In this document: piece by piece, positions 6,512 to 57,362 of the stretch
Position numbering within the stretch: the stretch's first letter is position 1
How the letters are laid out: every line of letters starts with the position of its first letter
Made by a program: the position numbers and the translations under genes
The notes under the pieces: generated by a model
What the model was told of the DNA's origin: nothing
What the model saw: only the letters and a program-made list of their open reading frames with translations
Databases searched by the model: none
From: Flavobacteriales bacterium
GTDB lineage: Bacteria; Bacteroidota; Bacteroidia; Flavobacteriales_C; GCA-002722245
Reading direction: 5' to 3'
Assembly: GCA_002717515.1 (NCBI GenBank)
Contig: PBEC01000017.1
Location: 9,159-73,158 of the forward strand
Length of the DNA: 64,000 nucleotides

Positions 6512-7057
6512 ATGCTTTACATGAAGGAAACGCAATTAATAGAAAAACTAAAGGAAAATAATGAACAAGCCTTCAAGCTTTTATATAAGTATTTTCCTAA
6601 AATAAGATCGTACTTATTAAAGTTTGGAGCAAGTAAACAGGAAACTGAAGACGTTTACCACGAAGCTCTTTATGTTTTAATTAATAAACTGAAGGACCCT
6701 GATTTTGTTCTAACCTCTAGTGTGAATACATTTCTTTTTAGTATTTGCAAATACAAATACACACGTTTAAATCGCAATAAACAAAAAGAAATTGACATAG
6801 AGATTGAAGCTCATGAAAAAGAAAATATTGAAGCTGCTGTTCAAGAAGACAAAAAATATTATGCAGCTCAAAACGCATTTCAGCAACTGGAAGAAAGCTG
6901 TAAAAAACTTCTCAAAGCATTTTATGTTGAAGGCAAAAGGATGAAACAAATCGCTATTGAATTTGGATTTAGCTCTGATAAAGTAGCGAAAACTCAAAAA
7001 TATCGATGCCTTGAAGCCGCTAAAAAAAATTACCAACAAAAAAATGTTACGCTATGA
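6512..7057 (+). CDS. RNA polymerase sigma-70 family ECF sigma factor
   Basis: About 180 aa. Region-2-like EDVYHEALYVLINK and a region-4 HTH (MKQIAIEFGFSSDKVAKTQKYRCLEAAKK). The stop overlaps the next gene (ATGA). Confidence 0.7.
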   Translation: MLYMKETQLIEKLKENNEQAFKLLYKYFPKIRSYLLKFGASKQETEDVYHEALYVLINKLKDPDFVLTSSVNTFLFSICKYKYTRLNRNKQKEIDIEIEAHEKENIEAAVQEDKKYYAAQNAFQQLEESCKKLLKAFYVEGKRMKQIAIEFGFSSDKVAKTQKYRCLEAAKKNYQQKNVTL

Positions 7058-41252: not shown

Positions 41253-41504
41253 ATGGACAAATTACAACAACTTTCCAACATCAGGGCTGAAGAGGTAAAT
41301 ATCTCCAAAATCACTGATTTTTTTGAAACTATAAAAAGTGTAAAAAACATCAATATAGAAGGTGCTGAAAATCATATTGTAAAATCAGATAACCTTCGAG
41401 AAGATAAAGTTGTTCACTGTAACCCTGAAGAAAAAGCGTTGATTATGGAAAACTTTCCTGCTAAGCAAGGAACGTATTTAGTTGTACCTAAAGTAATTCA
41501 ATAA
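41253..41504 (+). CDS. gatC: Asp-tRNA(Asn)/Glu-tRNA(Gln) amidotransferase subunit C
   Basis: 83 aa. The C-terminal ..GTYLVVPKVIQ matches the GatC ..F.VPKV(I/V)E end. It sits immediately upstream of gatA (2-nt gap). Confidence 0.7.
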   Translation: MDKLQQLSNIRAEEVNISKITDFFETIKSVKNINIEGAENHIVKSDNLREDKVVHCNPEEKALIMENFPAKQGTYLVVPKVIQ

Positions 41505-41506
41505 AG

Positions 41507-42916
41507 ATGAGTCAGTCTATTATTCAAGACATTCAAAATAAACTAAACGAAAAGAAAATATCTTGCGTTCAGTTGGTTCGAGAGAAAATTGCAGCTCTAC
41601 AATCCTCAACTAAAAATGCAAATAATTTAATTCTGGATGAGCAAGCTCTGGAACAAGCAAAAATATGGGATGAAAAAATTGCTTCGGGACATATATTAAG
41701 TGGAATCGAAGGAATTCCATTTGGCGTTAAAGATGTTTATTTGTTGAAAGGAACGATTTCCACAGCGAGTTCAAATATTCTAAAAAACTACAAGTCTCCA
41801 TATACTGCTACAGCCATTCAAAAGTTAATTGACGCGGGAGCGATACCCATATGCAAAGAAAATTGCGATCAATTTGGACATGGTTCTACAAATGAAAATT
41901 CCGTTTTTGGTGTTGCAAAAAATGCACACAATGACGATAAAGTGGCAGGAGGATCATCAGGAGGCTCTGCAGTTAATGTTGCCGAAGGAAATACTGTTTT
42001 CTCAATTGGGGGAGACACAGGTGGTTCTATTCGTCAACCTGCAGGGTACAACAAAGTTTATGGACTAAAACCAACATACGGGCGAGTTTCTCGATATGGC
42101 TTGATGGCCTACACTTCATCTTCTGACTGTGTTGGACCTTTTGCTAATACCGTTAAGGATATCGCTACAACTCTCAATGTTATGAGTGGTAAAGATGGAA
42201 AAGATCAAACCACATTAACTTCTACCCCAATAGATGTTGAATCTTTTGATTCGAAAATAAAGGCTGGAACAAAGATTGGTGTCTATAAATCTTTTATCGA
42301 TCACCCGTCCTTAGAATCGAAAATCAAGACAGACTTTAACTCATTAATTGAAAAATTAAAAGAAAAAGGTGTTGAAATAAAAGAACTTGATTTTTTTGAT
42401 GGAGATACACTAACTGCCACCTATTACATCATTGCCCTTGCTGAAACCGCTAGTAATCTTTCTCGAATTGATGGAATCGCATTCGGAAATAGAGCTATGG
42501 ATAAAGAGAACCTTGCTTTAACTTACCTGGACACAAGAGGTGAAGGGTTCAGTCAAGAAACCAAAAGAAGAATTATCGCAGGAAATCAGGTTTTGTCGGT
42601 TGGTTATTCTGAGGAAATCTATAAAAAAGCCTTGGAGGTAAGAAAAGGAATTGAAGCGAAATTTGCTAAGGATTTTGAAGAAGTAGATTTTGTTTTATCC
42701 CCTACATCCCCACTTCTCCCTCCAACTATTGGAGAATCTTTGAAGGATCCTCTAACCATGTATTTAAGCGATATGTATACGGTAGGATTTAGCCTTGGTG
42801 GATTGCCCACATTGAGTGCTCCTTTTGTGGTTGAAAACAATGTGCAAATAACTGCTGCAAAAGAAAAAGACGAAGAAATATTAAGATTTGCATACGCAAT
42901 TGAGCAATCGTTATAA
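41507..42916 (+). CDS. gatA: Glutamyl/aspartyl-tRNA amidotransferase subunit A (amidase signature family)
   Basis: Amidase signature GGSSGGSAVNVAEG...GGDTGGSIRQPA, the Ser-cisSer-Lys triad context, and the size. Confidence 0.9.
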   Translation: MSQSIIQDIQNKLNEKKISCVQLVREKIAALQSSTKNANNLILDEQALEQAKIWDEKIASGHILSGIEGIPFGVKDVYLLKGTISTASSNILKNYKSPYTATAIQKLIDAGAIPICKENCDQFGHGSTNENSVFGVAKNAHNDDKVAGGSSGGSAVNVAEGNTVFSIGGDTGGSIRQPAGYNKVYGLKPTYGRVSRYGLMAYTSSSDCVGPFANTVKDIATTLNVMSGKDGKDQTTLTSTPIDVESFDSKIKAGTKIGVYKSFIDHPSLESKIKTDFNSLIEKLKEKGVEIKELDFFDGDTLTATYYIIALAETASNLSRIDGIAFGNRAMDKENLALTYLDTRGEGFSQETKRRIIAGNQVLSVGYSEEIYKKALEVRKGIEAKFAKDFEEVDFVLSPTSPLLPPTIGESLKDPLTMYLSDMYTVGFSLGGLPTLSAPFVVENNVQITAAKEKDEEILRFAYAIEQSL

Positions 42917-42958
42917 AGCGATTAAAGTATTAATGGTTTTTTACAGTTTACAAAAACG

Positions 42959-45900
42959 ATGAGTTTAGATAAGAAAATTGAAGAATTAGGATATGAAATT
43001 GTAATGGGTGTTGAAACCCACGTACAACTAAACACTAAAACCAAGTTGTTTTGTTCATGCGATAATGAGGAATCAACAACACCCAATGAAAATATTTGTC
43101 CAGTTTGTACAGGTCAAATGGGTACCCTTCCGGAATTAAATAAAGCCGCGGTAGAAAAATCAATTATTCTAGGTGCTGGTTTAAATGCCAAAATACCTGA
43201 TTTAGTAAGATGGGATAGAAAACACTACCAATACCCTGATTTACCCAAAAACTTTCAATTGACGCAACTCGATCACCCCATCATTGAAGGTGGAAGTGTT
43301 AAATGTTTTCGAGACGACGGAAGTTCTTTTACTGTTGATTTACATCATGCACATTTAGAGGAAGATGCTGGTAAGTTAGTTCACACGGATAAATACTCCT
43401 TAGTTGATTACAACAGATGCGGTACTCCACTGGTTGAGATTGTTACCGAGCCATGTTTACACAAAGTGGAGGATGCAGAGATTTATGCTAAATACATTCA
43501 AAAAATAGCAAGGCATTTAGGTGTTTCGGACGCTGACATGGAAAAAGGCCAAATGCGTTCAGATGTTTCGATTTCATTAAGAAAGATAGGGACTAAAGAT
43601 TTAAACCCGCGTACAGAGATAAAAAACTTAAATTCCTTTGCTTTTATGTCTAAAGCGGTTGCAGAGGCTGTAAGCAAGCAACTTAATTATTACGAAGAGC
43701 ATGGAGTTCCTTCTCCCGACCAGGTAACTGCTCAGTGGGATGCGGAAGCTCAAGTAACTCGTGTGATGCGTTCTAAGGAAGATGCTGCAGATTACCGCTT
43801 CTCGCAAGAACCAGATATTCCATGGTTAGATGTTTCTGATTTAAAAGCGAGAACATCTGTTGATGTTTCATTGCTACCAACTGTTGTTGAAGAGGAATTA
43901 ATTACTGGTGGTGTCAGGCCTCAAGATGCCAAATTCTTCTCTGGTGATAAAGAAAGATCAAGAGTTGTAATTGGACTAAACGAGGGTGTTAATGACATTA
44001 AAGCAGTAGCAACTGTTTTAATGAACAATGTAAAACCAGAAGAATATTCAAACTTCTCAGAATTAAAACCTTACAACTCCTTACTTAAAAAATTCATTAA
44101 TAATGTTATCCCTGTAAATATTGTTAAGGAAGGTTTCCAGAATCTATACACCAACGCTGATTTTGATTACGAAGGATTTATCAAAGCGAACACTGTTTCG
44201 GAAGACCAGATTGATGCTGCAGTTGCTGAAATTGTTGCGGCAAATACAGAGATTGTTACCGCTATTACTAGAGGAAATCAAGGTCAAGCTGGTCGTTTAG
44301 TTCCTCAGGTAATGGCTAAGACTGGAAAAGGAGTTTCTGGTAAGATTATTCGTGAGAAAATTTTAGCAGCTTGTTCTGGCAAAGGAGCACAAACCGAAAA
44401 TGAGGGCGAGAATACTCAAAAAGGAGTAACAAAAGAAGCCAAGAAAAGAGATCTTAACGACGATACGCCGTCTAAATACCAGGATGTAAGAATTGTTAAG
44501 GATACTTACAGAACACATAGAATTCCTGATGTTTCCAAAGAAAACCTAAACCAGGAGTTAACACTTGGTGGATGGATTGCTTCTATTCGTGACCACGGGG
44601 AGCTGGTTTTTATTGACCTTAGAGACGCTTCTAATGAGGTTTTTCAAGTAAGAGTAACGCGTGATCAGGTGAAAGACATCGATGATATCGCTAGACTGAA
44701 AGACGAGTCTGTGATCGCAGTTAAAGGTCAGGTTATCGAAAGAGCTGCTGACGACATTAACCCTAATACAAGAACAGGTAATATCGAGCTGGTTGCAAGT
44801 CACATCGACGTATTAAACGTTTCGAAGAACTTACCTTTCGAGATTAAGAAAGCAGACAAAACGAATGAATCTGTTCGGATGGAGTATAAATTCTTAGACC
44901 ATAGAAATCAGTCGTCAAAGAAGGCTATTATCAACCGTCACAAAGTGATCAAGTTAATCCGTGACATGTTAGATGATCAAAATTTTATTGAAGTAGAAAC
45001 TCCTATACTATCTGGTGGTACAGACGAAGGAGCTCGTGAGTTCATCGTTCCATCAAGGGTTCACAAAGGGAAATTCTACACACTACCTCAAGCACCTCAG
45101 CAATACAAACAAATGCTAATGGTTGGAAGTTTTGAAAGATACTTCCAGATTGCTCGTTGTTTCCGTGATGAGGACTCAAGAGGTGACCGTCAGCCAGAAT
45201 TCACACAAATGGATTTGGAAATGTCCTTTGCGTCAATGGATGAAATTATCCAGCTCAACAGCGACCTATTGGTAAATGTTGTTAAAACGGTTTATGCCAA
45301 ATCCAAATGGCAATTAAAAGATTTTATTACCATTACCTATGCTGAAGCGATGGAAAAGTATGGTTGTGATCGCCCTGATTTGCGTTTTGGTTTACCTATG
45401 AAAACCATTACGGAAGTAGTTGCCAACACTCCTTTTCAGGTATTTAGAAATCCAATTGAAAATGGTGGTATTGTTAAAGCTATCAAAGTCTCCAAAGAGG
45501 AAATGGGTGACAAAAGAATGTCCAAAGGCGCTATTGAAAAGCTCACGACTTTAGCTCAAAGTAATGGTTTAGGTGGACTAGCCTATATTATTGTAAATGA
45601 GAATGATTTACAATCCCCAATAATCAAATTCATAGGGGAGGATATTGCAGCTAACATCATTAAAATAATGGATGCAAATGTAGGAGACATCGTCTTTTTC
45701 TCCGCTGCTGATTTTGGGACAGCAAACAAAGCTTTAGATGCGGTTAGACAAGAATTAGGGGCAATGCTCAACCTTATTCCTAAAAACGTATTGCAACCAG
45801 CTTGGGTCATTGACTTCCCTCAGTTTGAAGAAAAAGAAGACGGTGGATGGACGTTCTCACATAACCCATTCTCCATGCCTAAGCCAGAATTTGTTGAACA

Positions 45901-46291
45901 ACATATGAATGCTGAAAACCCAGGAAAAATCCTGGCACAACAGTACGACTTGATTCTCAATGGTTACGAAATCGGCGGAGGCTCTGTACGTGCCCACAGG
46001 GGCGACATACTTGAAGCTACATTTAAAATTATGGGATACAACCACGAAGAAATGCTGGCTTCAGTCGGAAATGTATACAACGCTTTCCAATACGGAGCTC
46101 CACCACACGGAGGAATTGCTTGGGGATTAGATAGACTCTTGATGATTCTTGAGAAGAAAGATTCGATTAGAGATGTTATGGCCTACCCGAAAACCGGTTC
46201 TGGTGAGGACTATTTATTCAACGCACCAAATGTACTTTCTGCAAAAAAGGTATCTGAAGCGAATGTTCAGTTGATTGAAAAGACCAAATAG
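42959..46291 (+). CDS. gatB-aspS: In-frame fusion of GatB (amidotransferase subunit B, aa 1 to about 475) with aspartate--tRNA ligase (bacterial type, aa about 520-1110)
   Basis: N-terminal GatB blocks: GYEIVMGVETHVQL, CPVCTGQMGTLPELN, YPDLPKNFQLTQ, and a GatB/YqeY tail VMAKTGKGVSGKIIREKIL. A Lys/Glu-rich linker follows. Then comes the AspRS OB-fold LTLGGWIASIRDHGELVFIDLRD, class II motifs FQIARCFRDED (motif 2) and GGGSVRAHRGD...GAPPHGGIAWGLDRL (motif 3), with the bacterial GAD insertion. One continuous 1110-codon ORF. Confidence 0.85.
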   Translation: MSLDKKIEELGYEIVMGVETHVQLNTKTKLFCSCDNEESTTPNENICPVCTGQMGTLPELNKAAVEKSIILGAGLNAKIPDLVRWDRKHYQYPDLPKNFQLTQLDHPIIEGGSVKCFRDDGSSFTVDLHHAHLEEDAGKLVHTDKYSLVDYNRCGTPLVEIVTEPCLHKVEDAEIYAKYIQKIARHLGVSDADMEKGQMRSDVSISLRKIGTKDLNPRTEIKNLNSFAFMSKAVAEAVSKQLNYYEEHGVPSPDQVTAQWDAEAQVTRVMRSKEDAADYRFSQEPDIPWLDVSDLKARTSVDVSLLPTVVEEELITGGVRPQDAKFFSGDKERSRVVIGLNEGVNDIKAVATVLMNNVKPEEYSNFSELKPYNSLLKKFINNVIPVNIVKEGFQNLYTNADFDYEGFIKANTVSEDQIDAAVAEIVAANTEIVTAITRGNQGQAGRLVPQVMAKTGKGVSGKIIREKILAACSGKGAQTENEGENTQKGVTKEAKKRDLNDDTPSKYQDVRIVKDTYRTHRIPDVSKENLNQELTLGGWIASIRDHGELVFIDLRDASNEVFQVRVTRDQVKDIDDIARLKDESVIAVKGQVIERAADDINPNTRTGNIELVASHIDVLNVSKNLPFEIKKADKTNESVRMEYKFLDHRNQSSKKAIINRHKVIKLIRDMLDDQNFIEVETPILSGGTDEGAREFIVPSRVHKGKFYTLPQAPQQYKQMLMVGSFERYFQIARCFRDEDSRGDRQPEFTQMDLEMSFASMDEIIQLNSDLLVNVVKTVYAKSKWQLKDFITITYAEAMEKYGCDRPDLRFGLPMKTITEVVANTPFQVFRNPIENGGIVKAIKVSKEEMGDKRMSKGAIEKLTTLAQSNGLGGLAYIIVNENDLQSPIIKFIGEDIAANIIKIMDANVGDIVFFSAADFGTANKALDAVRQELGAMLNLIPKNVLQPAWVIDFPQFEEKEDGGWTFSHNPFSMPKPEFVEQHMNAENPGKILAQQYDLILNGYEIGGGSVRAHRGDILEATFKIMGYNHEEMLASVGNVYNAFQYGAPPHGGIAWGLDRLLMILEKKDSIRDVMAYPKTGSGEDYLFNAPNVLSAKKVSEANVQLIEKTK

Positions 46292-46318: not shown

Positions 46319-48106
46319 ATGATTCACAGAATTAAAAATATATTTAAAGTCGGTTTCTTGAAAAAACTTCTTAAGGTATCCCTTTTATTTCTAACGTTTT
46401 CAGTTGTTGGTTACTTTCTTCTTGGGAAAATTGAGTACAAGGATGGCTTAACATACAAAACAGTAATCGATAACAAAATATACTCTATTCTCACTGAAAA
46501 AATAAACGACGGAAAGGCTTTTGAGGTTGAATATATAGAACCTTCTGATTTCAGTGAATTTAACTCCATTTCAATAGAGATGGATTCCTCTGTTTGGGAC
46601 AGTATGTTGTCGAATTACACTTTTTATCAAAGCAACAGGGAAAAATTTAGCGTACTGGAAAATAATGATTGGAGAAAAATAAAACTAACAGTTAACGATA
46701 CAACATATAATGCCAAAATGAAATGCCATGGAAAAACCCCTGATGGTCATTTTCATGAAAATATAATGTCATTAACCGTAAAGTTTAAAAAGAAAAGACC
46801 TCACTCCTTCTCAAAAAGAATGAATCTAATCATATACAAAAGGCTAAGAGATAGCCCTGCTGTAATAAATTATTTGAGTAAAAAACTAAATATTCATTAC
46901 ATAGAGAGTAAATTATTTTCAGTAAATATCAACAATGGAAAAAAGCATTTGATGCACTTGGAAGAAAGGTGTAATGAAGGTTTTTTCAAAAAGAGAAATT
47001 TAAACAACATATTAATTTGCAAAAAAGACTTGAACAAAACATTTTTAATTAACTGTTTGGAAGTCGATAAAAAGCAAAAAAACACCTTTTTTAAAAAGGA
47101 TGAAGTTTTGCAAGTATTGGAGAAAAAAATATCAAATTCTGATTTGTCTTCAAAAAATAAAAAAACAATTTACCGCTTAAACAAGCTGATATCCAACCAT
47201 GAAACAGACAGCCTTTTAAAAGTCCTAAACGTTGACTATTTTTCCAGGTATGAAGCATTAAGAAAAATTGGAGGATTTACTAATCATGGATTTGAAAAAC
47301 ACAACTTGCTGCTCTATCCTGATACTTCAAATGGAAAACTAATCATGATTCCTCATCGAGATCATTTTGTAAGAGAAATCGGTAACCAATTTTTCTTTGA
47401 AAAAGAGTTGTTGGACAAATTTTACTGGCAAAAACACCTTTTTCTGGAGTGTCTAGTTCTTAATGATTCTATAAGACTCAAATCTTATAAGCATTTATAT
47501 AATCTGCAAAGGAACAAAACATCAATATTAAGAGAACTAGACAGTATTGCTGATCTTCACTCTAGATTTCAAAGAAAATCTTTAATTAAGAAATGGTTTT
47601 ATCACTCGGCCTTAGGTCAAGAACAAACAGAGATGGATATGACTGATATATTTGTAAATAATTTAGAAAAAATAATGAGCGACTTAAACCCAGGAACACC
47701 TGAAGTTATAGTGAACTCAAACAGCGATTCAACCATTCACCTGTCCATAATTCCAAATTCCCTGAATGAAATAAAAATTAGCGGTATTGAATTGAAAAAC
47801 AATCATGAATTTGATATGATGCTACTCCGAGAATACACATCAAAGGAGGTTCTCATTTCGGATACACTTTTATCTATAAAAAAACAGAAGAATGAAGACT
47901 TTAAAAAACACTTAAAAAAAATTTCCTTTTTTAATAAACTCGATAAAGACTGGAACGAAATAAACTGTACATATCAACTTAAAATCACTGCCCGTTCAAA
48001 TTCGAACAATGTATATGTAAGTTTTGAGAATATGAATATTTTTAATTTTTCAAACAATATGAAAAAATTAAAATTCCTTTTAAACTCTAACCTTGCCGCT
48101 CGGTAA
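46319..48106 (+). CDS. CotH-family (atypical kinase-like) protein, membrane-anchored
   Basis: N-terminal TM. The block IKLTVNDTTYNAKMKCHGK...SLTVKF...IYKRL...YLSKKLNIHYIESKLFSVNINNGK..LMHLEE...FFKKRNL follows the CotH core pattern (..G..Y.V.(I/M)(R/K).(K/H)G..S...KKS.K(I/V)KF........L.NN..D.S..RE.L..ELFR..G.....S.FV.L..NGEY.GLY.L.E.ID..FL.RNF). Confidence 0.5.
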   Translation: MIHRIKNIFKVGFLKKLLKVSLLFLTFSVVGYFLLGKIEYKDGLTYKTVIDNKIYSILTEKINDGKAFEVEYIEPSDFSEFNSISIEMDSSVWDSMLSNYTFYQSNREKFSVLENNDWRKIKLTVNDTTYNAKMKCHGKTPDGHFHENIMSLTVKFKKKRPHSFSKRMNLIIYKRLRDSPAVINYLSKKLNIHYIESKLFSVNINNGKKHLMHLEERCNEGFFKKRNLNNILICKKDLNKTFLINCLEVDKKQKNTFFKKDEVLQVLEKKISNSDLSSKNKKTIYRLNKLISNHETDSLLKVLNVDYFSRYEALRKIGGFTNHGFEKHNLLLYPDTSNGKLIMIPHRDHFVREIGNQFFFEKELLDKFYWQKHLFLECLVLNDSIRLKSYKHLYNLQRNKTSILRELDSIADLHSRFQRKSLIKKWFYHSALGQEQTEMDMTDIFVNNLEKIMSDLNPGTPEVIVNSNSDSTIHLSIIPNSLNEIKISGIELKNNHEFDMMLLREYTSKEVLISDTLLSIKKQKNEDFKKHLKKISFFNKLDKDWNEINCTYQLKITARSNSNNVYVSFENMNIFNFSNNMKKLKFLLNSNLAAR

Positions 48107-50235: not shown

Positions 50236-52179
50236 TTGAAGTATCTTTTTTTTGTACTTATTCTTTTACTAGAGATATCGTCAAGCTCATGCAGTCAAAC
50301 CCTGTTACCTGAGAAAAGGCTCGAGGAGCAAAACCATTGGTTTACGTCCTGTGAATCCACAAAATTGATTAATAAAGTTCGGTTTTTTTCAGACGGTAAA
50401 GGTTTAATTAAATCTCAAAACATAATTTGTGATTCCATTTCAAGATCTGGAAAATTTAGTTTGATTATGAAGCAAAACAAAAAATTTGCTTTTGAGACAT
50501 CAATAAAAAAAATAAAAAAAGGCGATTATTTTCTCGCATCCGTCTGGGTCAAGGGTTCAATAAGTTTACCTAAACTAACAGCTGTTTACAACAAAAGATT
50601 TAACACAAAAAACAAAGTTTTAAAAAAAGAGAACGGGTGGAGCTATCTTGAAATAAGAATACATATAAAGGAAGATGCACCAGAATTAAAATTTTATGTT
50701 TTTAAACCGGATAAAATACAGATGATTTTAGACGACTTTCACGTCTATAAGCTCCCCAATAAAATGAACTCAAAAACTAATCAGCTTGAGGGTATCGAAA
50801 AAGTTAACCTAAAAGTTCCTGAGGATAATTTAATTAAAGTTATTGAGCAAAGAAAACAAGCATTTAATGACAAAATGCTAAGTAAAAAAACAAAAAAATG
50901 GATTAAAGTAGAAGCAAACGGAAAAAAGGCAAAAATGAGATTAAAAGGAGATTGGCTGGACCATTTGTCGAACTACAAATGGAGCTACCGAATAAAAACA
51001 ACACAACCACCATTTGTAGAGTATTCGATAACAAATCCTATTTCAAGAAATTTTTTAATTGAATTTTCCGCTCAAAAAATAATGCGCTCAGAAGGAATTT
51101 TTACAACTAATTATTCTTTTTGCTATGTTTCTACGAACGACTCAATGAAGGGGATTTATGGATTGGAACAACACTTTAATAAAAAGTTAATTGAAACCTG
51201 GAAATTCGGAAGTGGAGACATCTTGAAATATGATGAAAATGATGTTTGGAAAATCAGAAAAAAAAATAATCTAAAAGATAGACAGGAGCTCAACTACCTG
51301 GATTGCTCTAATATTCTTTCGTACATAAATAAAGGCAATTCAGAACATATGAAAAACAACGGCAAAACATTGGACATATTAAAGAAAACTGACTTTCCTG
51401 TAGATTCAATATTTGATATTGATTATATGGCAAAATACTGCGCTTTGATTGATTTATTTAACGCACATCACGGTATATTTTGGCACAATATAAGACTCTT
51501 TAAAAGCGATTCAACTCATAAATACTACCCTATTGCCTTTGACTTGAGTACCGATAAAAATTCCAACAATGATGACTTGCTGTTTCAAAAAATAGATAAA
51601 GAGCCAATTTTTATTGGATTATTTCAAAATAAAAAATTTAAAAAGAAATATTTTAATCAACTTAAAATTTATTCATCAGATGATTTTCTGAATCGAATAA
51701 ATACATTTCTAGGTGAAGAGCACAAACTCTATTCGAAAGCCATTCTTCAGGAATACGACTCTGTATGGATTCAAAATGAATTATACCGAGAAAGGGCTCA
51801 GCAAATAAAATTATTAATTCAAAACGGGCTTAAAGACACATTGAACACACTTAAATTCGACACAAAAAACACGAATCTTTTAAACAACGAGTACGAGTTC
51901 GAGCCGGTCATTTCCGCGAAAGCTTACAATCAAGGAAACGGTAAAATACTAATCATGAACTTCTATAATAAACCCATTGAAATAATATCTTTTGAGGATG
52001 ATAAAGGACGACCGGTAAAAACCTCATCAAAACAAATACAAGCATACAAAAAGGCTTTCTCAAAAGCATCGTATTATATACACAGCACGAAAACTAAATT
52101 AAAATGGTGTGTTGTTAGCGTTAACAAAAAAAGATATCGAATAAAAATACGTAAAGGCGCATACCCTATAAGCTATTAA
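50236..52179 (+). CDS. CotH-family (atypical kinase-like) lipoprotein
   Basis: Signal/lipobox ..EISSSSC. The core block KMRLKGDWLDHLSNYKWSYRIK...ITNPISRNFLIEFSAQKIMRSEGIFTTNYSFCYVSTNDSMKGIYGLEQHFNKKLIE matches the CotH pattern. Confidence 0.55.
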   Translation: MKYLFFVLILLLEISSSSCSQTLLPEKRLEEQNHWFTSCESTKLINKVRFFSDGKGLIKSQNIICDSISRSGKFSLIMKQNKKFAFETSIKKIKKGDYFLASVWVKGSISLPKLTAVYNKRFNTKNKVLKKENGWSYLEIRIHIKEDAPELKFYVFKPDKIQMILDDFHVYKLPNKMNSKTNQLEGIEKVNLKVPEDNLIKVIEQRKQAFNDKMLSKKTKKWIKVEANGKKAKMRLKGDWLDHLSNYKWSYRIKTTQPPFVEYSITNPISRNFLIEFSAQKIMRSEGIFTTNYSFCYVSTNDSMKGIYGLEQHFNKKLIETWKFGSGDILKYDENDVWKIRKKNNLKDRQELNYLDCSNILSYINKGNSEHMKNNGKTLDILKKTDFPVDSIFDIDYMAKYCALIDLFNAHHGIFWHNIRLFKSDSTHKYYPIAFDLSTDKNSNNDDLLFQKIDKEPIFIGLFQNKKFKKKYFNQLKIYSSDDFLNRINTFLGEEHKLYSKAILQEYDSVWIQNELYRERAQQIKLLIQNGLKDTLNTLKFDTKNTNLLNNEYEFEPVISAKAYNQGNGKILIMNFYNKPIEIISFEDDKGRPVKTSSKQIQAYKKAFSKASYYIHSTKTKLKWCVVSVNKKRYRIKIRKGAYPISY

Positions 52180-53740
52180 AAAAAACTATTTTCTTCTCCA
52201 GTACATTAGGAGATGTTTCAATTTGATGCTTAAATCGATTTAAATCTTTTGCTAAAAAAGGTATAAAAGACACAACTCTTTCCATGGGTTTTGAACCTGG
52301 AAAAAGTTTATTGATAATATTTACTAATTTCAAAATATCTTCCTGATGCTTTTTCTTTTCTGCCTTTAAGAATCTTTTTTCAACATTTTTGAGAGCTGAA
52401 TTAGCCCTCTTTTCCTCACCTTCAATTACCTTCTTCAATTGCACATCAATCTCATCTCCTTTTATCTTTAAATTATGAAAAAACTTTTTTAAGAATTCAA
52501 AATCCTGATCAAGTGAAATAGGATTGGACGACAAAAACTTGGTTAGTGCATTAATTTGAACATTAACGTCATCAAACAAGGCTTCCGAAAATAAATTTCT
52601 TGAACTGAGCCAATCGAAATTTTTTTCAGTCAATACAAAATAAGAATTTCTCAAAATTGGTATTGGAAAACCAATCTTTAGAGCATTAAAAACAGGTTTA
52701 AGTTCTAACCAATAGGAAACCTCCCCCGCGCCACCAACATAAGCCAGGTTAGGAAACAAGATTTCTTGATAAACAGGGCGAAGCAAAACATTTGGACTAA
52801 TTTTCTCAGGTGTTTTATCAATTAGCTCTTCTATTTCATCAGGGGTCCAAAACATGGATTGATCTGAAGTCGAAAACCCTTCTTTCGTTCTCACAAATCT
52901 CTTTCGAATTCCATTCTCGATGTAAAACAAATTTATCTCCCTAGGTTTAACTTGAAGTTTGTAATCCTGTTTTATTTTGTTGAGATGATCTTTACTTGAA
53001 TTGGTTACAATCTGTTCAAAAAATTCTTTTCGAGCAACGTCTTTAAACAGTGTTTTTAATTCTCTTGAATCCGCATCAAAAATAAGCAAACCCTCTTCTT
53101 TAAAAAGTTCTCTAATAAAAACCCTTGTTATGTGACTTAAGTTCTTTCCTGAATCAAAAGCCTGATTAATAAGCTCTTTAACATGGCTAAATTCTTTATC
53201 ATCTCCTAAAACCTGATTTACCTCTTTTATAAAACTCTTAAAATGTTTACTCTGAATCCTCCCCACAGGTCCAGCGTTGTTTCCGGGACAACTTATGGTT
53301 TTTCCAAACAGGTTCACTTTTGAAATCTCTTGATAATCGTGATCCTCTGATGCCATCCAAAAAATAGGTAAAACTGCATTCTGTGATGTTGAAATTTGTT
53401 TAGAGAGTTTTATTACATCCATAATTTTTGTGTAAAAAAACAACGGCCCTCCTAAAAGCATCAACTGATGTCCTGTGGTTATCGTAAAAGTAGTTTCTTT
53501 CGAAAAAAGAGCTAAGTTAAACTTCTCTTTTTCAGTAAGTTCAAATGGTGAATACTGATTTTTCAGAGCTTTATAAACTATTGCTCTATTACTGGAGCTG
53601 TAACTTCTACCTTTGTTATCCAACAACTGCTTCTCAGAGTAATCCCAGTTAACAATTTTTTTAGCTTTTAACTCTCCCGATAAATAATCTGAAATAATTC
53701 TTGGGTAAAAATCAACTTTATTGGATTTTATTAAATTCAT
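52166..53740 (-). CDS. bshC: Bacillithiol biosynthesis cysteine-adding enzyme BshC
   Basis: TGHQLMLLGGPLFFYTKIMDVIKL and PIFWMASEDHDYQEI align to B. subtilis BshC (..GGQQAGLLTGPLYTIHKI.. and ..PIFWVAGEDHDLDEI..). About 524 aa, as expected. The start overlaps the upstream gene stop (ATGA). Confidence 0.8.
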   Translation of the reverse strand: MNLIKSNKVDFYPRIISDYLSGELKAKKIVNWDYSEKQLLDNKGRSYSSSNRAIVYKALKNQYSPFELTEKEKFNLALFSKETTFTITTGHQLMLLGGPLFFYTKIMDVIKLSKQISTSQNAVLPIFWMASEDHDYQEISKVNLFGKTISCPGNNAGPVGRIQSKHFKSFIKEVNQVLGDDKEFSHVKELINQAFDSGKNLSHITRVFIRELFKEEGLLIFDADSRELKTLFKDVARKEFFEQIVTNSSKDHLNKIKQDYKLQVKPREINLFYIENGIRKRFVRTKEGFSTSDQSMFWTPDEIEELIDKTPEKISPNVLLRPVYQEILFPNLAYVGGAGEVSYWLELKPVFNALKIGFPIPILRNSYFVLTEKNFDWLSSRNLFSEALFDDVNVQINALTKFLSSNPISLDQDFEFLKKFFHNLKIKGDEIDVQLKKVIEGEEKRANSALKNVEKRFLKAEKKKHQEDILKLVNIINKLFPGSKPMERVVSFIPFLAKDLNRFKHQIETSPNVLEKKIVFFNSL

Positions 53741-55200
53741 TTGTTTTGTGTTCCATATTCCTCAATCGGATTCTCCAATACGCTATACCTAGAATTACTC
53801 AACGTAATTATGGAAGAGGCTGTGTAAAACCCAATTCTTGTTTCAGAATATTTGTAATCAATCAACGTTAGTTTTACAATCTTATTTATTGAAAGTTCTA
53901 TGTAATGGCCGTATCTTATAAGCTTGAAGTCTACAGAATAATCGTTACCAACAACAAATTGATTGGTTTGTAAATTTTTGAAAACAAAATTATTTTGAGT
54001 GTCATCAGGGTTGAAACCCCACGCTCTTATTTGAACATAACCACTTTTAAAATCAAGCGATATATAGTAGCCACTTCCATCATCTCCTTCAGCCAACAGC
54101 AATCCACACTTTCCTATGCCTTCCATAGCAATTGTCCCCTCCCATATGTATGCTGCAGAAATTCGCTCGAAAGTAAACAATTCATATCCTGACCTTGATG
54201 TCATCCACCATTTACCCTGTACATTCTCAAACTTGGCAGTAGGATTATTATACATAGGCTTGACTTCTGGAAAGGCTTTTTGAGTATGAATTTCAGTAAC
54301 TTTTTCTGTCCATTTATAAAATGACTTAAGATATAACTTCCCTTCCGAATTGACCGCCAGCTCTTTTGGTGGAGGCAACACTCGTTTAGAATTTACTTTA
54401 CGATCAAGAAAATAAAAACCGTAAACAAGATTATGATCTCCGTCTTTTACAATTCTTGCGGCATAATTTCCTTGAGGCATCAAAACATCATGATGAAAAG
54501 ACTGATACTCTCCATCAAAAGAATCCGAGTGCCAATAACGAACTTTTATATCTTCTCGAATTGATCCAATGAGAAAAAACCGACCTTCCATCTCTATTAA
54601 ACACGGACATTCAATATCATCATAAGCCAAAGGGAATAATATCGGCTTTTCAGGCTCAAATCCATTTTCGGTTCTTTTATAAGCCGCCACACAACCTCTT
54701 CTGTAAACAGGACCCGTGCTTGCTCTGGCACATATTAACAGATACTCCAAGCCTTTATTCTTAAATAAAAAAGGATCTCGAAAACTTAGCCATGTCCTCG
54801 GATTATTCTTAACATCTTCATAGTAAGGAGCCTGAGATTCTATAGGCAAGTCCTCAGGAAAAGTTTTATCCCAACTAATTAAATCTTTAGAAATCGCTCT
54901 TCCAACTCTTTGATTAATCCCTCGCTCCTCCAGCTGCAACCCCGTATAAAACATCTCAAAACTACCGTCTTCACAATCCGAAACGTCCATTGTCCACAAC
55001 ATATCATCATCCCACTCGCCTGGATCTCCAACGAAAATAGCGTTCTTTACCCTACTCCATGAAATTCCGTCCTTAGAAACTGCATGCGCAATGTAATCGT
55101 GATTAGGTATTATTAAATGAAATAAATGATAAACTCCATTATGGACATGAACTTCCACATCCCCAATTTCCCAATCTGTAAACCCACTTCCTGTATACAT
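53737..55200 (-). CDS. GH32-family-like (beta-fructofuranosidase/invertase-like 5-bladed propeller) glycoside hydrolase with a degenerate N-terminal nucleophile motif
   Basis: FRDPFLF matches the RDP motif and DIECPCLIEMEG matches the EC(P) acid/base motif at the expected spacing. GVYHLFHL resembles GEYHLFYQ. The canonical WMNDPNG is replaced by FTDWEIGD right at the N-terminus. A C-terminal beta-sandwich-like domain is present. Confidence 0.5.
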   Translation of the reverse strand: MYTGSGFTDWEIGDVEVHVHNGVYHLFHLIIPNHDYIAHAVSKDGISWSRVKNAIFVGDPGEWDDDMLWTMDVSDCEDGSFEMFYTGLQLEERGINQRVGRAISKDLISWDKTFPEDLPIESQAPYYEDVKNNPRTWLSFRDPFLFKNKGLEYLLICARASTGPVYRRGCVAAYKRTENGFEPEKPILFPLAYDDIECPCLIEMEGRFFLIGSIREDIKVRYWHSDSFDGEYQSFHHDVLMPQGNYAARIVKDGDHNLVYGFYFLDRKVNSKRVLPPPKELAVNSEGKLYLKSFYKWTEKVTEIHTQKAFPEVKPMYNNPTAKFENVQGKWWMTSRSGYELFTFERISAAYIWEGTIAMEGIGKCGLLLAEGDDGSGYYISLDFKSGYVQIRAWGFNPDDTQNNFVFKNLQTNQFVVGNDYSVDFKLIRYGHYIELSINKIVKLTLIDYKYSETRIGFYTASSIITLSNSRYSVLENPIEEYGTQNK

Positions 55201-55205
55201 ATGAA

Positions 55206-57362
55206 CTATTTCAATTTAAAATGCTCAAGTCCTTCCAGAATACCCGCTGCAGCATACTTTTTTGCTACGTATAATTTTTTTCTGGTCCTTAAGTGACTTA
55301 ATTCTTCTGATGCATTACCAACAACAATTCCATTTATGGGTTCCCGGAACATGTCCATATCATTTCCTGAGTCTCCACATGCGTAAACCTTATTCAACTG
55401 TAGGCCCCATTTATGACAAAGATAAAGGATTGCATTTCCCTTTGAGGCTCTTTTCGGAAGGATATCAACAAATTTATTGTGTGACGCTATTACATTTATA
55501 TGATACCAGTCGTTGCCTAATCGTGACTTTATTTTTTCTTCATTATACTTTTGTGAGTCACAGTAATAAGAAATCTTATGTGGGTTTTGAGCATTTTCCT
55601 CCTGTAAAACCAACCAATCTAAAGATTTAAGAGCGTCAACAATTTTAGATCGGTCCCATTTGAAGTCGAGGTATGCACTCCAATCCTCATCTTTACTATT
55701 TAGGTCTGTATCGTAATATATTTGTGTACCAACTGAACACACGATAAAATCAACATCTAATTTATATTCATCAACAACTTCTTTTACCAAATCAAAATTT
55801 CGTCCCGAAGACAAAGCAAAACTAATTCCAGTCTCTCTATTTTGAAGGAATTTTTTTAAATCCTCTATTCCTGGATCGCCATGCTCAGGAGCAATCAAAG
55901 TACCATCAATATCAGAAATAATCAAACTTTTACTCTCTTTTAAATGCTTTATATGTTCTTTTGGAGCGTTAAGTTCCTTGGCTGTTTTTGGCTCAGAACG
56001 ACTGATACTTTCCTGGACCCAGCTAACATACACTTCTATGTGAGCATCCCAACTGTAATGCTTTTTGGTGTTTAATATCCCATTATCACTAAAATGACGC
56101 CATTTTTGCTCATTCGTAAGTATTTTTTTTATACTTCTTGTTATGTCAGCCTTATCCATTGGATCAACCAACAAACCATTTTTCATCCTTGGCACAATTT
56201 CAGATGGACCACCATTCTTTGTAATTACAACAGGTAATCCTGTTCCTCCTGCCTCAATTGTAGTTAAACCGAAATTTTCATGCAAACAGATATTTGCAAA
56301 AACTCCACGCTTATTGGCGCAATATTGATAAATCAGAGCTACTTCATTTTCAATATCGTGTCTTTTAGGTATCGCCATTTTCCCGTATAAATCATACTTG
56401 TCCATAAGGAGCAAAAGTTCTGTAAGAACCTCTTTTTCTTGCTCAGGCATAGTATTTATATCCTTTCTAATACCGGCAAAAATTGCCAGATTAGCTAAAG
56501 CTTGTAACTCCTTATCTTCTCCATACGCCTCAATTAAAAAATGTAAATTTTTTCTTCTATCTGGACGGCTAAGAGCCATAATTACGGGTTTATTCGGGTT
56601 CGTCAAGAACTTTTCGATATTTTGACCAACCCAATACCTACGTTGAAGTTGAATTAAGTCCTCTTCCTCCTGAAATCGTTTAATGTAATAAGGTGTAAAC
56701 TTTTGTATATCTATTCCAGGAGGCTGAACGTGAAATTGAGCCTTATCATAATTATCGTATTCCTCCCAGTCTGCTATTTCTAAATAAGTTGATGTAACTA
56801 TAAACTCACTCAAAGCCAGCGCATTCTCCTCTGCACTGATTCTTTGTTTAAATTTAAACCTTTCCTCAGCCTCCTTTTCTGTCATTCCAGATGCAAGCAT
56901 TTTTTGCTTTTTAGCCAATCCAAGAGAGTGCCCTGTATGAGCGAAAGGAACATTCAAGCGTACAGACAGTCGAGAAGCTGCATAACCAGCGTCTCCATAA
57001 TGAGAATGTATCCAATCCGGCTGAATATCATATTCTTTTATATGTTTCAAAGCATTTTCTACAAATTCATCAAGATGAGCCCAAAGCTCTTCTTTCATTT
57101 TATACTTTAATCCACCAAATTCAATTCGACGAATATCAAACTTAGGATTAATCTCTTCAATGGTCGCACCATACTCCGACGAAACTTCATCATCTTTAAT
57201 TTTTCTTGTGAACAAATGCACATGTTCAACCTCTTCATGATTGGAAAGGTATTCTGAGAGTTCAAGGACATATTTTGTTTGTCCTCCATTATCGGCGTCT
57301 CTTCCAATTTCAAGACCACTTCCCTTTACCAGGCCATGGAGATTAATGATGAATATTCTCAT
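55206..57362 (-). CDS. sps: Bifunctional-architecture sucrose-phosphate synthase (GT4 glucosyltransferase domain plus C-terminal sucrose-phosphatase-like HAD domain)
   Basis: N-terminal HGLVKGSGLEIGRDADNGGQTKYVLEL, the GT-B core, and a C-terminal HAD motif LIISDIDGTLI...GDSGNDMDMF. 718 aa, like the cyanobacterial SPS. Confidence 0.85.
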   Translation of the reverse strand: MRIFIINLHGLVKGSGLEIGRDADNGGQTKYVLELSEYLSNHEEVEHVHLFTRKIKDDEVSSEYGATIEEINPKFDIRRIEFGGLKYKMKEELWAHLDEFVENALKHIKEYDIQPDWIHSHYGDAGYAASRLSVRLNVPFAHTGHSLGLAKKQKMLASGMTEKEAEERFKFKQRISAEENALALSEFIVTSTYLEIADWEEYDNYDKAQFHVQPPGIDIQKFTPYYIKRFQEEEDLIQLQRRYWVGQNIEKFLTNPNKPVIMALSRPDRRKNLHFLIEAYGEDKELQALANLAIFAGIRKDINTMPEQEKEVLTELLLLMDKYDLYGKMAIPKRHDIENEVALIYQYCANKRGVFANICLHENFGLTTIEAGGTGLPVVITKNGGPSEIVPRMKNGLLVDPMDKADITRSIKKILTNEQKWRHFSDNGILNTKKHYSWDAHIEVYVSWVQESISRSEPKTAKELNAPKEHIKHLKESKSLIISDIDGTLIAPEHGDPGIEDLKKFLQNRETGISFALSSGRNFDLVKEVVDEYKLDVDFIVCSVGTQIYYDTDLNSKDEDWSAYLDFKWDRSKIVDALKSLDWLVLQEENAQNPHKISYYCDSQKYNEEKIKSRLGNDWYHINVIASHNKFVDILPKRASKGNAILYLCHKWGLQLNKVYACGDSGNDMDMFREPINGIVVGNASEELSHLRTRKKLYVAKKYAAAGILEGLEHFKLK

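What the first reader, a model, noticed from the sequence alone, without database searches (positions are those of the whole stretch)
42959..46291. GatB fused in-frame to a full-length AspRS: a covalently hard-wired transamidosome
One 1110-codon ORF carries a complete GatB followed by a complete bacterial-type class II aspartyl-tRNA synthetase. The GatB part has the helical/catalytic core with CPVCTGQMG and YPDLPKNFQ, plus the YqeY-like tail VMAKTGKGVSGKIIREKIL. A Lys/Glu-rich linker of about 45 aa (about 44384..44506) joins the two. The AspRS part has the N-terminal anticodon-binding OB fold, the GAD insertion, and motifs 2 and 3. GatCAB converts Asp-tRNA(Asn) made by a non-discriminating AspRS into Asn-tRNA(Asn). 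In Thermus this happens in a non-covalent transamidosome (AspRS:GatCAB:tRNAAsn). A covalent GatB-AspRS fusion would enforce substrate channelling and 1:1 stoichiometry. I do not recognise it as a described architecture; GatB and AspS are normally separate polypeptides. If real, it predicts that this AspRS is non-discriminating and that the organism may lack AsnRS and/or AsnB/AsnA.
Basis: partly seen in the sequence, partly recalled or inferred. Interest (0 to 1): 0.85.

Follow-up and report, generated by a model that had tools for sequence, protein, structure and literature searches.

The report
GatB–AspRS fusion: real, already annotated
The single long gene that joins the amidotransferase subunit GatB to a complete aspartyl-tRNA synthetase is real, but hundreds of Bacteroidota genomes carry it and NCBI already names it as a bifunctional protein, so it is a new copy of a catalogued (though apparently unstudied) architecture.

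Summary
Observation confirmed. Window 42959..46291 (+) is one 1110-codon ORF. It encodes a full GatB (aa 12-468), a roughly 44-aa disordered linker, and a full bacterial-type AspRS with GAD insertion (aa 516-1107). It follows gatC and gatA in one operon.

It is not an assembly artefact. All 76 species-level loci that are not cut by contig ends have the same stop-free ORF, and 412 GTDB species genomes encode the junction.

It is not novel. RefSeq already names it [quoted passage not shown] in Polaribacter, Urechidicola, Seonamhaeicola and others. I found no paper that describes or tests it.

Catalytic residues of both halves are invariant in 121 sequences. The linker varies in sequence but stays 44-56 aa long. 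His546, which matches the His of the known non-discriminating AspRSs aligned, is invariant.

Published gene counts for Polaribacter MED152 show one aspS, GatCAB, AsnRS and GlnRS, but no AsnA or AsnB. The likely role is therefore tRNA-dependent asparagine biosynthesis by a tethered transamidosome, not replacement of AsnRS.

Similar fusions occur in Aminipila (Clostridia; separate origin on an unsupported NJ tree) and in a genetic-code-25 lineage. Interest is low to moderate.

The parts
41253..41504 (+). gatC (83 aa), first gene of the operon
   Evidence: Pfam GatC 30.2 bits. TIGR00135 scores 41 bits, below its 47.1 cutoff, so the protein is divergent. It sits in the same position in nearly all related loci.
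41507..42916 (+). gatA (469 aa), the glutaminase subunit
   Evidence: Pfam Amidase 7.7e-111. TIGR00132 gatA scores 457 bits against a cutoff of 481. The GGSSGGS amidase signature is visible in the translation. It lies immediately upstream of the fusion in every locus with enough flank.
42959..46291 (+). gatB::aspS fusion ORF, 1110 aa
   Evidence: It is 58-93% identical over 98-100% of its length to 120 full-length homologs.
42992..43840 (+). GatB catalytic (cradle) domain, aa 12-294
   Evidence: GatB_N 6.4e-97. E19, H21, K88, E134, E135, D136 and E160 are invariant in 121 of 121 sequences. It aligns with Aquifex GatB 3h0l_B.
43856..44365 (+). GatB helical and YqeY-like tail domains, aa ~300-469
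   Evidence: GatB_Yqey gives a partial, weak hit (30.5 bits). The half aligns to residue 473 of the 478-residue Aquifex GatB, so the tail is complete. AF2 predicts it all-helical. It is the least conserved folded part, with mean conservation 0.58-0.73.
44366..44497 (+). inter-enzyme linker, aa ~470-513
   Evidence: Mean conservation is 0.38, against 0.7-0.97 elsewhere. Length is 44-56 aa with a mode of 48 in 121 sequences. AF2 gives pLDDT below 50 and no secondary structure for 475-504 and 511-521. No Met is conserved here: 101 of 121 sequences have none between aa 465 and 535.
44507..44818 (+). AspRS N-terminal anticodon-binding OB fold, aa 517-620. It includes His546 (codon 44594..44596) and the L1 loop (aa 595-607).
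   Evidence: tRNA_anti-codon 2.3e-09. His546 is invariant in 121 of 121 sequences. It aligns with the His of the P. aeruginosa and mycobacterial Asp/Asn ligases and with Leu in E. coli AspRS.
44864..46195 (+). AspRS class II catalytic core, aa 636-1079 (motifs 2 and 3)
   Evidence: tRNA-synt_2 3.3e-106. FRDEDSRGDRQPEFTQ and GGIAWGLDR are present. R736, E738, R744, E747, R1011 and R1059 are invariant. It is 38% identical to E. coli AspRS end to end.
45443..45736 (+). GAD insertion domain, aa 829-926, the hallmark of bacterial-type AspRS
   Evidence: Pfam GAD 1.8e-19.

Best explanation
The gene encodes a genuine bifunctional polypeptide. GatB is the kinase/transamidase subunit of the tRNA-dependent amidotransferase. 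It is joined by a flexible linker of about 45 residues to the cell's bacterial-type AspRS.

Proposed mechanism, step by step:
- The fusion is co-expressed with GatC and GatA from one operon (shown).
- AspRS is an obligate dimer, so the product should be a (GatB-AspRS)2:(GatA)2:(GatC)2 particle, a covalently tethered Asn-transamidosome (inferred).
- The AspRS half charges tRNAAsp with Asp and releases it for translation.
- It also charges tRNAAsn with Asp. The tethered GatCAB then converts Asp-tRNAAsn to Asn-tRNAAsn before it can escape (inferred).
- Stand-alone bacterial (GAD-bearing) transamidosomes are transient and held together by tRNA. The tether keeps the two enzymes at 1:1 and at high local concentration (inferred).

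Physiological role. Related genomes keep AsnRS and GlnRS but lack AsnA and AsnB. The most likely role is therefore tRNA-dependent biosynthesis of asparagine, as in Bdellovibrio, Legionella, Thermus and Deinococcus, and not compensation for a missing AsnRS.

Shown here: the architecture, its conservation, the operon, the intact catalytic residues and the disordered, length-constrained linker. Inferred: non-discriminating specificity, complex stoichiometry, channelling and physiological role.
For: - Architecture and completeness of both halves.
- The same stop-free ORF occurs in 76 of 76 complete loci from different species. The gatC-gatA-gatB::aspS order occurs in all loci with upstream sequence.
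- Catalytic residues of both enzymes are invariant in 121 sequences.
- The linker is variable in sequence, constrained to 44-56 aa, and predicted disordered.
- There is no conserved internal Met, so a separately translated AspRS is unlikely.
- His546 is invariant and matches the His in P. aeruginosa, M. tuberculosis and M. smegmatis Asp/Asn ligases. E. coli discriminating AspRS has Leu there, and the closest solved AspRS (6wom) has Lys.
- Polaribacter sp. MED152 has asnA 0, asnB 0, gatCAB 1, aspS 1, asnS 1, glnS 1 and a U1-A72 tRNAAsn. Flavobacteriia without GatCAB carry 1-4 asnB genes (PMC4206432 Table S1).
- Bacterial-type Asn-transamidosomes are dynamic, and AspRS leaves after aspartylation (PMC3367201).
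- A fusion in the same order and the same operon sits in Aminipila/Clostridia on 11 contigs. It groups with stand-alone AspRSs on an NJ tree, which suggests a separate origin.
- NCBIfam also holds a curated AspRS-GatC bifunctional model, NF009460.
- These repeated fusions argue that linking AspRS to GatCAB is selected.
Against: - No biochemical data exist for any member that I could find.
- The second published marker of non-discrimination, as I recall it (Gly83 of P. aeruginosa AspRS), is not met. The aligned residue is Asp in most or all family members.
- His at the 546 position is also the majority state among AspRS representatives in general (53 of 76), so it is a weak discriminator.
- asnS, asnA/asnB, glnS and tRNAAsn could not be examined in the window organism or any fusion-bearing genome. 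None lies in the window or in 87 flanks.
- I did not verify that strain MED152 itself carries the fused gene; the link is at genus level.
- GatA and GatC score below NCBI's equivalog cutoffs, and the GatB tail matches Pfam weakly, so altered specificity cannot be excluded.
- Post-translational cleavage of the linker cannot be excluded.
Confidence: 0.75

Rival explanations
1. Assembly or sequencing artefact. Separate gatB and aspS genes were merged by a lost stop codon or a frameshift in this assembly.
For: gatB and aspS are separate genes in most bacteria. The junction is low-complexity sequence.
Against: The uninterrupted ORF recurs in isolate genomes, including the complete genome of Urechidicola croceus CP017478.1, and in independent metagenome assemblies. 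All 76 loci not truncated by contig ends have a stop-free ORF of at least 1090 aa. A total of 412 species-representative genomes match across the junction.
Confidence: 0.01
2. The fusion is the only route to Asn-tRNAAsn, because the organism lacks AsnRS.
For: This is the classical role of ND-AspRS with GatCAB. The window clade is only 51% (GatB half) and 67% (AspRS half) identical to the Polaribacter clade, so its gene content could differ. No asnS lies in the 64-kb window.
Against: Polaribacter MED152, like nearly all Bacteroidetes in the 547-genus survey, encodes AsnRS. What it lacks is AsnA and AsnB. A 64-kb window says nothing about the rest of the genome.
Confidence: 0.15
3. GatCAB here serves mainly Gln-tRNAGln synthesis, because the organism lacks GlnRS. 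On this view the AspRS fusion only ensures co-expression, or serves both amidations.
For: Some Bacteroidetes (Fluviicola, Cytophaga, Belliella, Echinicola) have GatCAB and no GlnRS (PMC3927822). Bacterial GatCAB is often dual-specific.
Against: The partner physically fused is AspRS, not GluRS, in every lineage where the fusion was found. Polaribacter has GlnRS.
Confidence: 0.08
4. The GatB module is catalytically dead. It acts only as an appended tRNA-binding domain for AspRS, like the YqeY/GatB-tail domain appended to Deinococcus GlnRS.
For: There is a precedent for GatB-derived tRNA-binding appendages (PMC1865053). The tail domain matches Pfam only weakly.
Against: The whole GatB is present, not only the tail. 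All checked cradle-domain residues are invariant. gatC and gatA are always co-encoded upstream.
Confidence: 0.02

Closest known systems
RefSeq/PGAP protein family 'bifunctional amidotransferase subunit GatB/aspartate--tRNA ligase AspS' (Polaribacter, Urechidicola croceus, Seonamhaeicola marinus, Flavicella, Marinilabiliaceae MAGs and others)
   Same: It has the same five Pfam domains in the same order and the same length (1101-1123 aa). Identity is 58-60% over 98-100% of the query. It has the same gatC-gatA-fusion operon.
   Different: The window protein belongs to a deeper sister clade of uncultured marine Flavobacteriales MAGs (73-96% identical among themselves). In that clade the sources call the protein only 'aspartyl-tRNA synthetase' or 'hypothetical', or give it no name.
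Bacterial-type Asn-transamidosome (P. aeruginosa ND-AspRS:GatCAB:tRNAAsn, PDB 4WJ3/4WJ4; H. pylori complex)
   Same: It has the same enzymes: a GAD-bearing bacterial AspRS with His at the 'RDHG' position, plus GatC, GatA and GatB. The expected stoichiometry is also the same, one AspRS dimer to two GatCAB (my recollection of Suzuki et al. 2015, which I could not read here).
   Different: There the complex is non-covalent, dependent on tRNA and dynamic (PMC3367201). Here GatB and AspRS are one chain. Those organisms also lack AsnRS, whereas Polaribacter has it.
tRNA-dependent asparagine biosynthesis in bacteria that have AsnRS, GlnRS and GatCAB but no AsnA or AsnB (Bdellovibrio bacteriovorus, Legionella pneumophila, Thermus, Deinococcus)
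   Same: Polaribacter MED152 shows the same gene-content pattern. Like Bdellovibrio, it has a single bacterial-type AspRS (PMC4206432).
   Different: The enzymes are separate in those organisms. Thermus and Deinococcus use a second, archaeal-type ND-AspRS.
NCBIfam NF009460 (PRK12820) 'bifunctional aspartyl-tRNA synthetase/aspartyl/glutamyl-tRNA amidotransferase subunit C'
   Same: AspRS is covalently joined to a GatCAB subunit. A likely example is P0215, an AspRS with a weak C-terminal GatC match.
   Different: The partner is GatC rather than GatB, and it sits at the C-terminus of AspRS. The window protein scores 473 bits against a cutoff of 1379, so it is not a member.
GatB-AspRS fusions outside Bacteroidota: Aminipila sp. 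WP_331655381.1 (Clostridia) and a genetic-code-25 lineage (P0121/P0271)
   Same: The domain order is the same. Aminipila also has the gatC-gatA-fusion operon.
   Different: Identity is only 36-44%. The Aminipila AspRS half nests among stand-alone AspRSs on an NJ tree, which suggests a separate origin. The code-25 version is not next to gatCA, and its AspRS half is sister to the Bacteroidota family on the same tree. That tree has no support values.

Membership tests
GatB (Asp/Glu-tRNA amidotransferase subunit B) | GatB/GatE catalytic cradle domain with conserved metal-binding and catalytic residues | tested here: met
   GatB_N 6.4e-97. NF004012 scores 414 bits, above its cutoff of 338. E19, H21, K88, E134, E135, D136 and E160 are invariant in 121 of 121 sequences. 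The functional assignment of these residues is from my memory of the S. aureus GatCAB structures.
GatB (Asp/Glu-tRNA amidotransferase subunit B) | Helical domain and YqeY-like C-terminal tail that binds the tRNA D-loop | tested here: met
   The half aligns to residue 473 of the 478-residue Aquifex GatB. The Pfam GatB_Yqey match is partial and weak (30.5 bits, cutoff 27), so the tail is divergent.
GatB (Asp/Glu-tRNA amidotransferase subunit B) | Partner subunits GatA and GatC are encoded | tested here: met
   gatC and gatA lie directly upstream. The arrangement is conserved in related loci.
Bacterial-type class IIb AspRS | N-terminal OB-fold anticodon-binding domain, class II motifs 2 and 3, and the GAD insertion | tested here: met
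   NF001750 scores 710 bits against a cutoff of 443, matching positions 3-588 of its 590. tRNA_anti-codon, tRNA-synt_2 and GAD are all found. Identity to E. coli AspRS is 38% end to end.
Non-discriminating AspRS (Asp/Asn ligase) | His at the position of P. aeruginosa His31 ('RDHGG'), where discriminating enzymes have Leu | tested here: met
   His546 is invariant. P. aeruginosa, M. tuberculosis and M. smegmatis Asp/Asn ligases have His, and E. coli has Leu. His is also common among AspRSs in general (53 of 76), so the marker is weak. Its significance is from my memory of Bernard et al. 2006, which I could not read here.
Non-discriminating AspRS (Asp/Asn ligase) | Gly at the position of P. aeruginosa Gly83 in the L1 loop | tested here: not met
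   The aligned residue is Asp in most or all of the family (the loop reads R-x-x-D-D-x-N). E. coli has Lys.
Non-discriminating AspRS (Asp/Asn ligase) | Aspartylation of tRNAAsn as well as tRNAAsp | not testable with these tools
   This needs an in vitro charging assay or the E. coli trpA34 complementation assay.
RefSeq 'bifunctional GatB/AspS' family | A single polypeptide with full GatB followed by full AspRS, alignable over the whole length | tested here: met
   The 120 best hits show 98-100% query coverage at 58-93% identity and all match at least four of the five Pfam domains (119 match all five). Many carry this NCBI name.
Asn-transamidosome | Physical complex of AspRS, GatCAB and tRNAAsn with channelling of Asp-tRNAAsn | not testable with these tools
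   Only the covalent GatB-AspRS link and the operon are shown here. Assembly with GatA and GatC, and channelling, are inferred.
Asn-transamidosome | tRNAAsn with a U1-A72 pair, the GatCAB identity element | not tested
   There is no tRNA gene in the window and no tRNA-Asn in 60 related loci. U1-A72 is reported for Polaribacter MED152.

The most novel reading that the evidence does not exclude
The most novel reading left open is this. The fusion is named in databases, but a natural covalent GatB-AspRS 'hard-wired transamidosome' has never been described or characterised in the literature. It may have arisen more than once: in Bacteroidota, in Clostridia (Aminipila), and possibly by sharing or transfer with a code-25 candidate-phylum lineage. 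In Bacteroidota it would be the cell's only AspRS. All Asp-tRNAAsp for translation would then be made by an enzyme permanently attached to an amidotransferase, and the complex would be the cell's only source of asparagine.
Probability: 0.45. Interest if true: 0.5.

Novelty: already known. Interest (0 to 1): 0.3.

Why it matters
For genome annotation it does not matter much. The architecture is recognised, named and common in marine Flavobacteriia.

It matters modestly for aaRS biology.
- It is a natural experiment in substrate channelling. Bacterial-type Asn-transamidosomes are transient complexes scaffolded by tRNA. Evolution has apparently replaced that weak association with a covalent tether, perhaps more than once.
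- The fusion would make a convenient, stoichiometrically defined particle for structural and kinetic work.
- It is a useful genomic marker for tRNA-dependent asparagine biosynthesis, that is, absence of AsnA and AsnB, in abundant marine Bacteroidota.

Tried and rejected
1. Literature. Seven full-text searches covered GatB/AspRS fusion names, 'transamidosome' with 'fused', the NCBI product name and similar phrases. None found a paper on a natural GatB-AspRS fusion. Suzuki et al. 2015 (PMC4299244) is not held. The search for H31/G83 returned only unrelated papers.
2. Looking for asnS, asnB and glnS near the operon. tblastn of the E. coli proteins against the window and 87 loci gave only cross-hits on the AspRS half. 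Pfam annotation of 40 further window ORFs found no aaRS or Asn synthetase. Whole genomes cannot be reached with these tools.
3. Looking for tRNA-Asn to check U1-A72. There is none in the window or in 60 loci.
4. A conserved neighbour. The asparaginase gene downstream of the fusion in Urechidicola is not conserved in any other locus. I rejected it as part of the system.
5. RNA leader or riboswitch. There are no Rfam hits in the whole window. I could identify no convincing promoter motif by eye upstream of gatC.
6. AlphaFold2 of the monomer gave only moderate confidence (mean pLDDT 67.7, pTM 0.51). It is usable for linker disorder and secondary structure, but not for domain packing. I ran no fold search on it.
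7. Horizontal-transfer island. The operon has higher GC (0.38-0.39) than its flanks (about 0.32). Flanking synteny is kept in a related contig, and conserved housekeeping genes in AT-rich genomes are usually GC-richer. I did not pursue this further.


Full report
**1. The observation**

Window 42959..46291 (+) is a single ATG-started ORF of 1110 codons with no internal stop.

- Pfam places GatB_N at aa 15-294, GatB_Yqey at 372-469, the OB-fold anticodon-binding domain at 535-619, the class II core at 636-1079 and the GAD insertion at 829-926.
- NCBIfam's bacterial AspS equivalog matches aa 516-1107 at 710 bits (cutoff 443). A GatB equivalog matches aa 12-468 at 414 bits (cutoff 338).
- The GatB half aligns to residue 473 of the 478-residue Aquifex GatB.
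- The AspRS half aligns with E. coli AspRS from its second residue to its end, at 38% identity.

Both enzymes are therefore complete. gatC (41253..41504) and gatA (41507..42916) lie immediately upstream on the same strand. The gaps are 2 nt between gatC and gatA and 42 nt between gatA and the fusion.

**2. Not an artefact**

The 120 best database matches are all 1101-1123 aa and cover 98-100% of the query at 58-93% identity. All but one match all five Pfam domains; the exception lacks only the weak GatB_Yqey hit.

- The complete genome of Urechidicola croceus (CP017478.1) shows the same single ORF behind gatC and gatA. So does an independent 352-kb metagenome contig that is syntenic with the window.
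- A scan of one genome per GTDB species, using the junction region (GatB tail, linker and AspRS N-terminus), found 412 genomes encoding it. The 80 best were fetched.
- Of the 82 related loci held at that point, 76 have a stop-free ORF of at least 1090 aa. The other six are cut by contig ends.
- GatA lies directly upstream wherever the flank exists.

**3. Not novel**

NCBI already names the protein [quoted passage not shown]. The name is used in many RefSeq genomes, including Polaribacter spp., Urechidicola croceus, Seonamhaeicola marinus, Flavicella and Marinilabiliaceae MAGs.

The genome scan adds Tamlana, Algibacter, Lutibacter, Jejuia, Flavivirga, Mariniflexile and two Flavobacterium species. 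It also adds MAGs labelled Chitinophagales, Cytophagales, Bacteroidales and Saprospiraceae.

The window copy belongs to a deep sister clade of uncultured marine Flavobacteriales. Its closest relative is MAG SP250, at 93% (GatB half) and 96% (AspRS half). Identity to Polaribacter is only 51% and 67%.

In a library clustered at 50% identity, the whole Bacteroidota family collapses into one cluster.

I found no paper that mentions a natural GatB-AspRS fusion. It is catalogued, but as far as I could search it has not been characterised.

**4. Anatomy and conservation**

In an alignment of 121 family members, both enzyme halves are well conserved (mean 0.58-0.97 per 30-residue block).

- The residues I checked are invariant. 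In the GatB cradle these are E19, H21, K88, E134-E135-D136 and E160. In AspRS motifs 2 and 3 they are R736, E738, R744, E747, R1011 and R1059.
- The linker (aa ~470-513) is the least conserved stretch, at 0.38. Its length is nevertheless held at 44-56 residues, with a mode of 48.
- AlphaFold2 predicts the linker without secondary structure and with pLDDT below 50.
- No Met is conserved around the junction. Translation of a separate AspRS from an internal ATG is therefore unlikely.
- The GatB helical and tail region is the most divergent folded part, and its Pfam match is weak.

**5. Function**

The AspRS carries an invariant His546 in the motif RDHGE.

- The aligned residue is His in the P. 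aeruginosa, M. tuberculosis and M. smegmatis Asp/Asn ligases.
- It is Leu in discriminating E. coli AspRS.
- It is Lys in the closest solved AspRS, 6wom.

From memory, this is one of two positions shown to matter for tRNAAsn recognition in P. aeruginosa. The other, Gly83, is not matched here: the aligned residue is Asp. His is also the majority state among AspRSs generally. The sequence evidence for non-discrimination is therefore suggestive only.

Gene content is more informative. In the 547-genus survey of Alperstein et al. (PMC4206432), Polaribacter sp. MED152 has no asnA and no asnB. It has one gatCAB, one aspS, asnS, glnS and a U1-A72 tRNAAsn. Flavobacteriia without GatCAB carry one to four asnB genes.

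This is the pattern the authors tie to tRNA-dependent asparagine biosynthesis in Bdellovibrio and Legionella. I did not verify strain MED152 itself. However, every Polaribacter genome sampled here carries the fusion.

The likely role is therefore to make asparagine on tRNAAsn. The fused AspRS would also serve as the cell's only AspRS.

**6. Mechanism (inferred)**

AspRS is a dimer, so the product should be (GatB-AspRS)2(GatA)2(GatC)2.

Work on H. pylori shows that bacterial-type, GAD-bearing transamidosomes are dynamic. ND-AspRS docks on GatCAB:tRNAAsn and is released after aspartylation (PMC3367201). A flexible tether of constrained length would keep the two active sites within reach of one tRNA. 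It would also fix 1:1 stoichiometry.

GatB can still reject Asp-tRNAAsp through the G1-C72 and U20a antideterminants (PMC9976931).

The tether joins GatB's tRNA-binding tail to AspRS's anticodon-binding domain. Both modules hold the lower part of the tRNA, so a linker of about 45 residues is geometrically plausible. I could not measure this.

**7. Recurrence elsewhere**

- An Aminipila (Clostridia) protein of 1090 aa has the same order and the same gatC-gatA-fusion operon, and occurs on 11 contigs. It is only 36-42% identical. Its AspRS half nests among stand-alone AspRSs on an NJ tree, which suggests an independent fusion.
- A third version (P0121/P0271) comes from a 27% GC contig. Its gene holds 46 in-frame TGA codons at conserved Gly positions, which indicates genetic code 25. 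It is not next to gatCA. Its AspRS half is sister to the Bacteroidota family on the same tree, which has no support values.
- NCBIfam also curates an AspRS-GatC bifunctional family, NF009460.

**8. Verdict**

The finding is real, functional-looking and biologically neat. It is also widespread and already explicitly annotated, so novelty is "already known".

The residual interest is that no experimental or descriptive literature could be found, and that similar fusions occur outside Bacteroidota. The main gaps are the gene content of the window organism and any biochemical test of specificity or channelling.

Noticed in passing
L084:6001-9351 (ENA ERZ28614712, MUNK22-1 scaffold_230): A GatB-AspRS fusion gene carries 46 in-frame TGA codons that fall on conserved Gly positions. 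The contig is 27% GC, which fits a genetic-code-25 lineage (Gracilibacteria/Absconditabacteria-like). It is not adjacent to gatC or gatA. The database translations of P0121 and P0123 show Trp at these positions.
   Followed up: partly
L085-L087:6001-9273 (Aminipila-like Clostridia contigs): A GatB-AspRS fusion in a gatC-gatA-fusion operon lies beside glutamate synthase and dap genes. NCBI names it only 'aspartate--tRNA ligase' (WP_331655381.1). An NJ tree suggests a separate origin from the Bacteroidota family.
   Followed up: partly
P0138/P0278 (Bacillota); P0141 and P0211; P0215: Other AspRS fusions turned up among the representatives. They are HisRS-AspRS (1029 aa, on 59 contigs), AspRS with a C-terminal YbaK-like tRNA_edit domain (about 745 aa), and AspRS with a weak C-terminal GatC match (710 aa).
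   Followed up: partly
window 53737..57362 (-): A 718-aa sucrose-phosphate synthase fused to sucrose-phosphate phosphatase (GT-B_Sucrose_synth, Glycos_transf_1 and S6PP) sits next to a GH32 glycoside hydrolase. The same pair is kept in the syntenic contig L002. This suggests sucrose synthesis and turnover in a marine Flavobacteriales lineage.
   Followed up: no
window 24218..29773 (-): An 1851-aa bacterial alpha-2-macroglobulin with MG, bait-region and TED domains.
   Followed up: no
window 46319..48106 (+), 50236..52179 (+), 7054..9300 (+): Three large ORFs (595, 647 and 748 aa) have no Pfam match. The first starts 27 nt after the fusion's stop codon, and contig L002 has an ORF of similar size in the same position. 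It may be co-transcribed with the operon in this clade only.
   Followed up: no
window 42001..46000 compared with its flanks: The gatA and gatB::aspS region has GC 0.38-0.39, against about 0.31-0.33 around it. A similar peak lies over the KatG-like peroxidase gene at 3583..5874. This probably reflects constraint on conserved genes in an AT-rich genome, not an island.
   Followed up: partly
L007 (JBLIBC010000031.1) and L008 (JBLIAZ010000028.1): Two MAG contigs come from the same sample (3300053770). One is labelled 'Glaciecola sp.' (a gammaproteobacterium) and the other 'Saprospiraceae'. Both carry fusions 74-87% identical to the window clade. The taxonomic labels are probably binning errors.
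   Followed up: no
L001:11474-12472 (Urechidicola croceus): An Asparaginase_2 (isoaspartyl peptidase/L-asparaginase) gene lies directly downstream of the fusion. It is not conserved in any other locus, so the adjacency is probably coincidental.
   Followed up: yes
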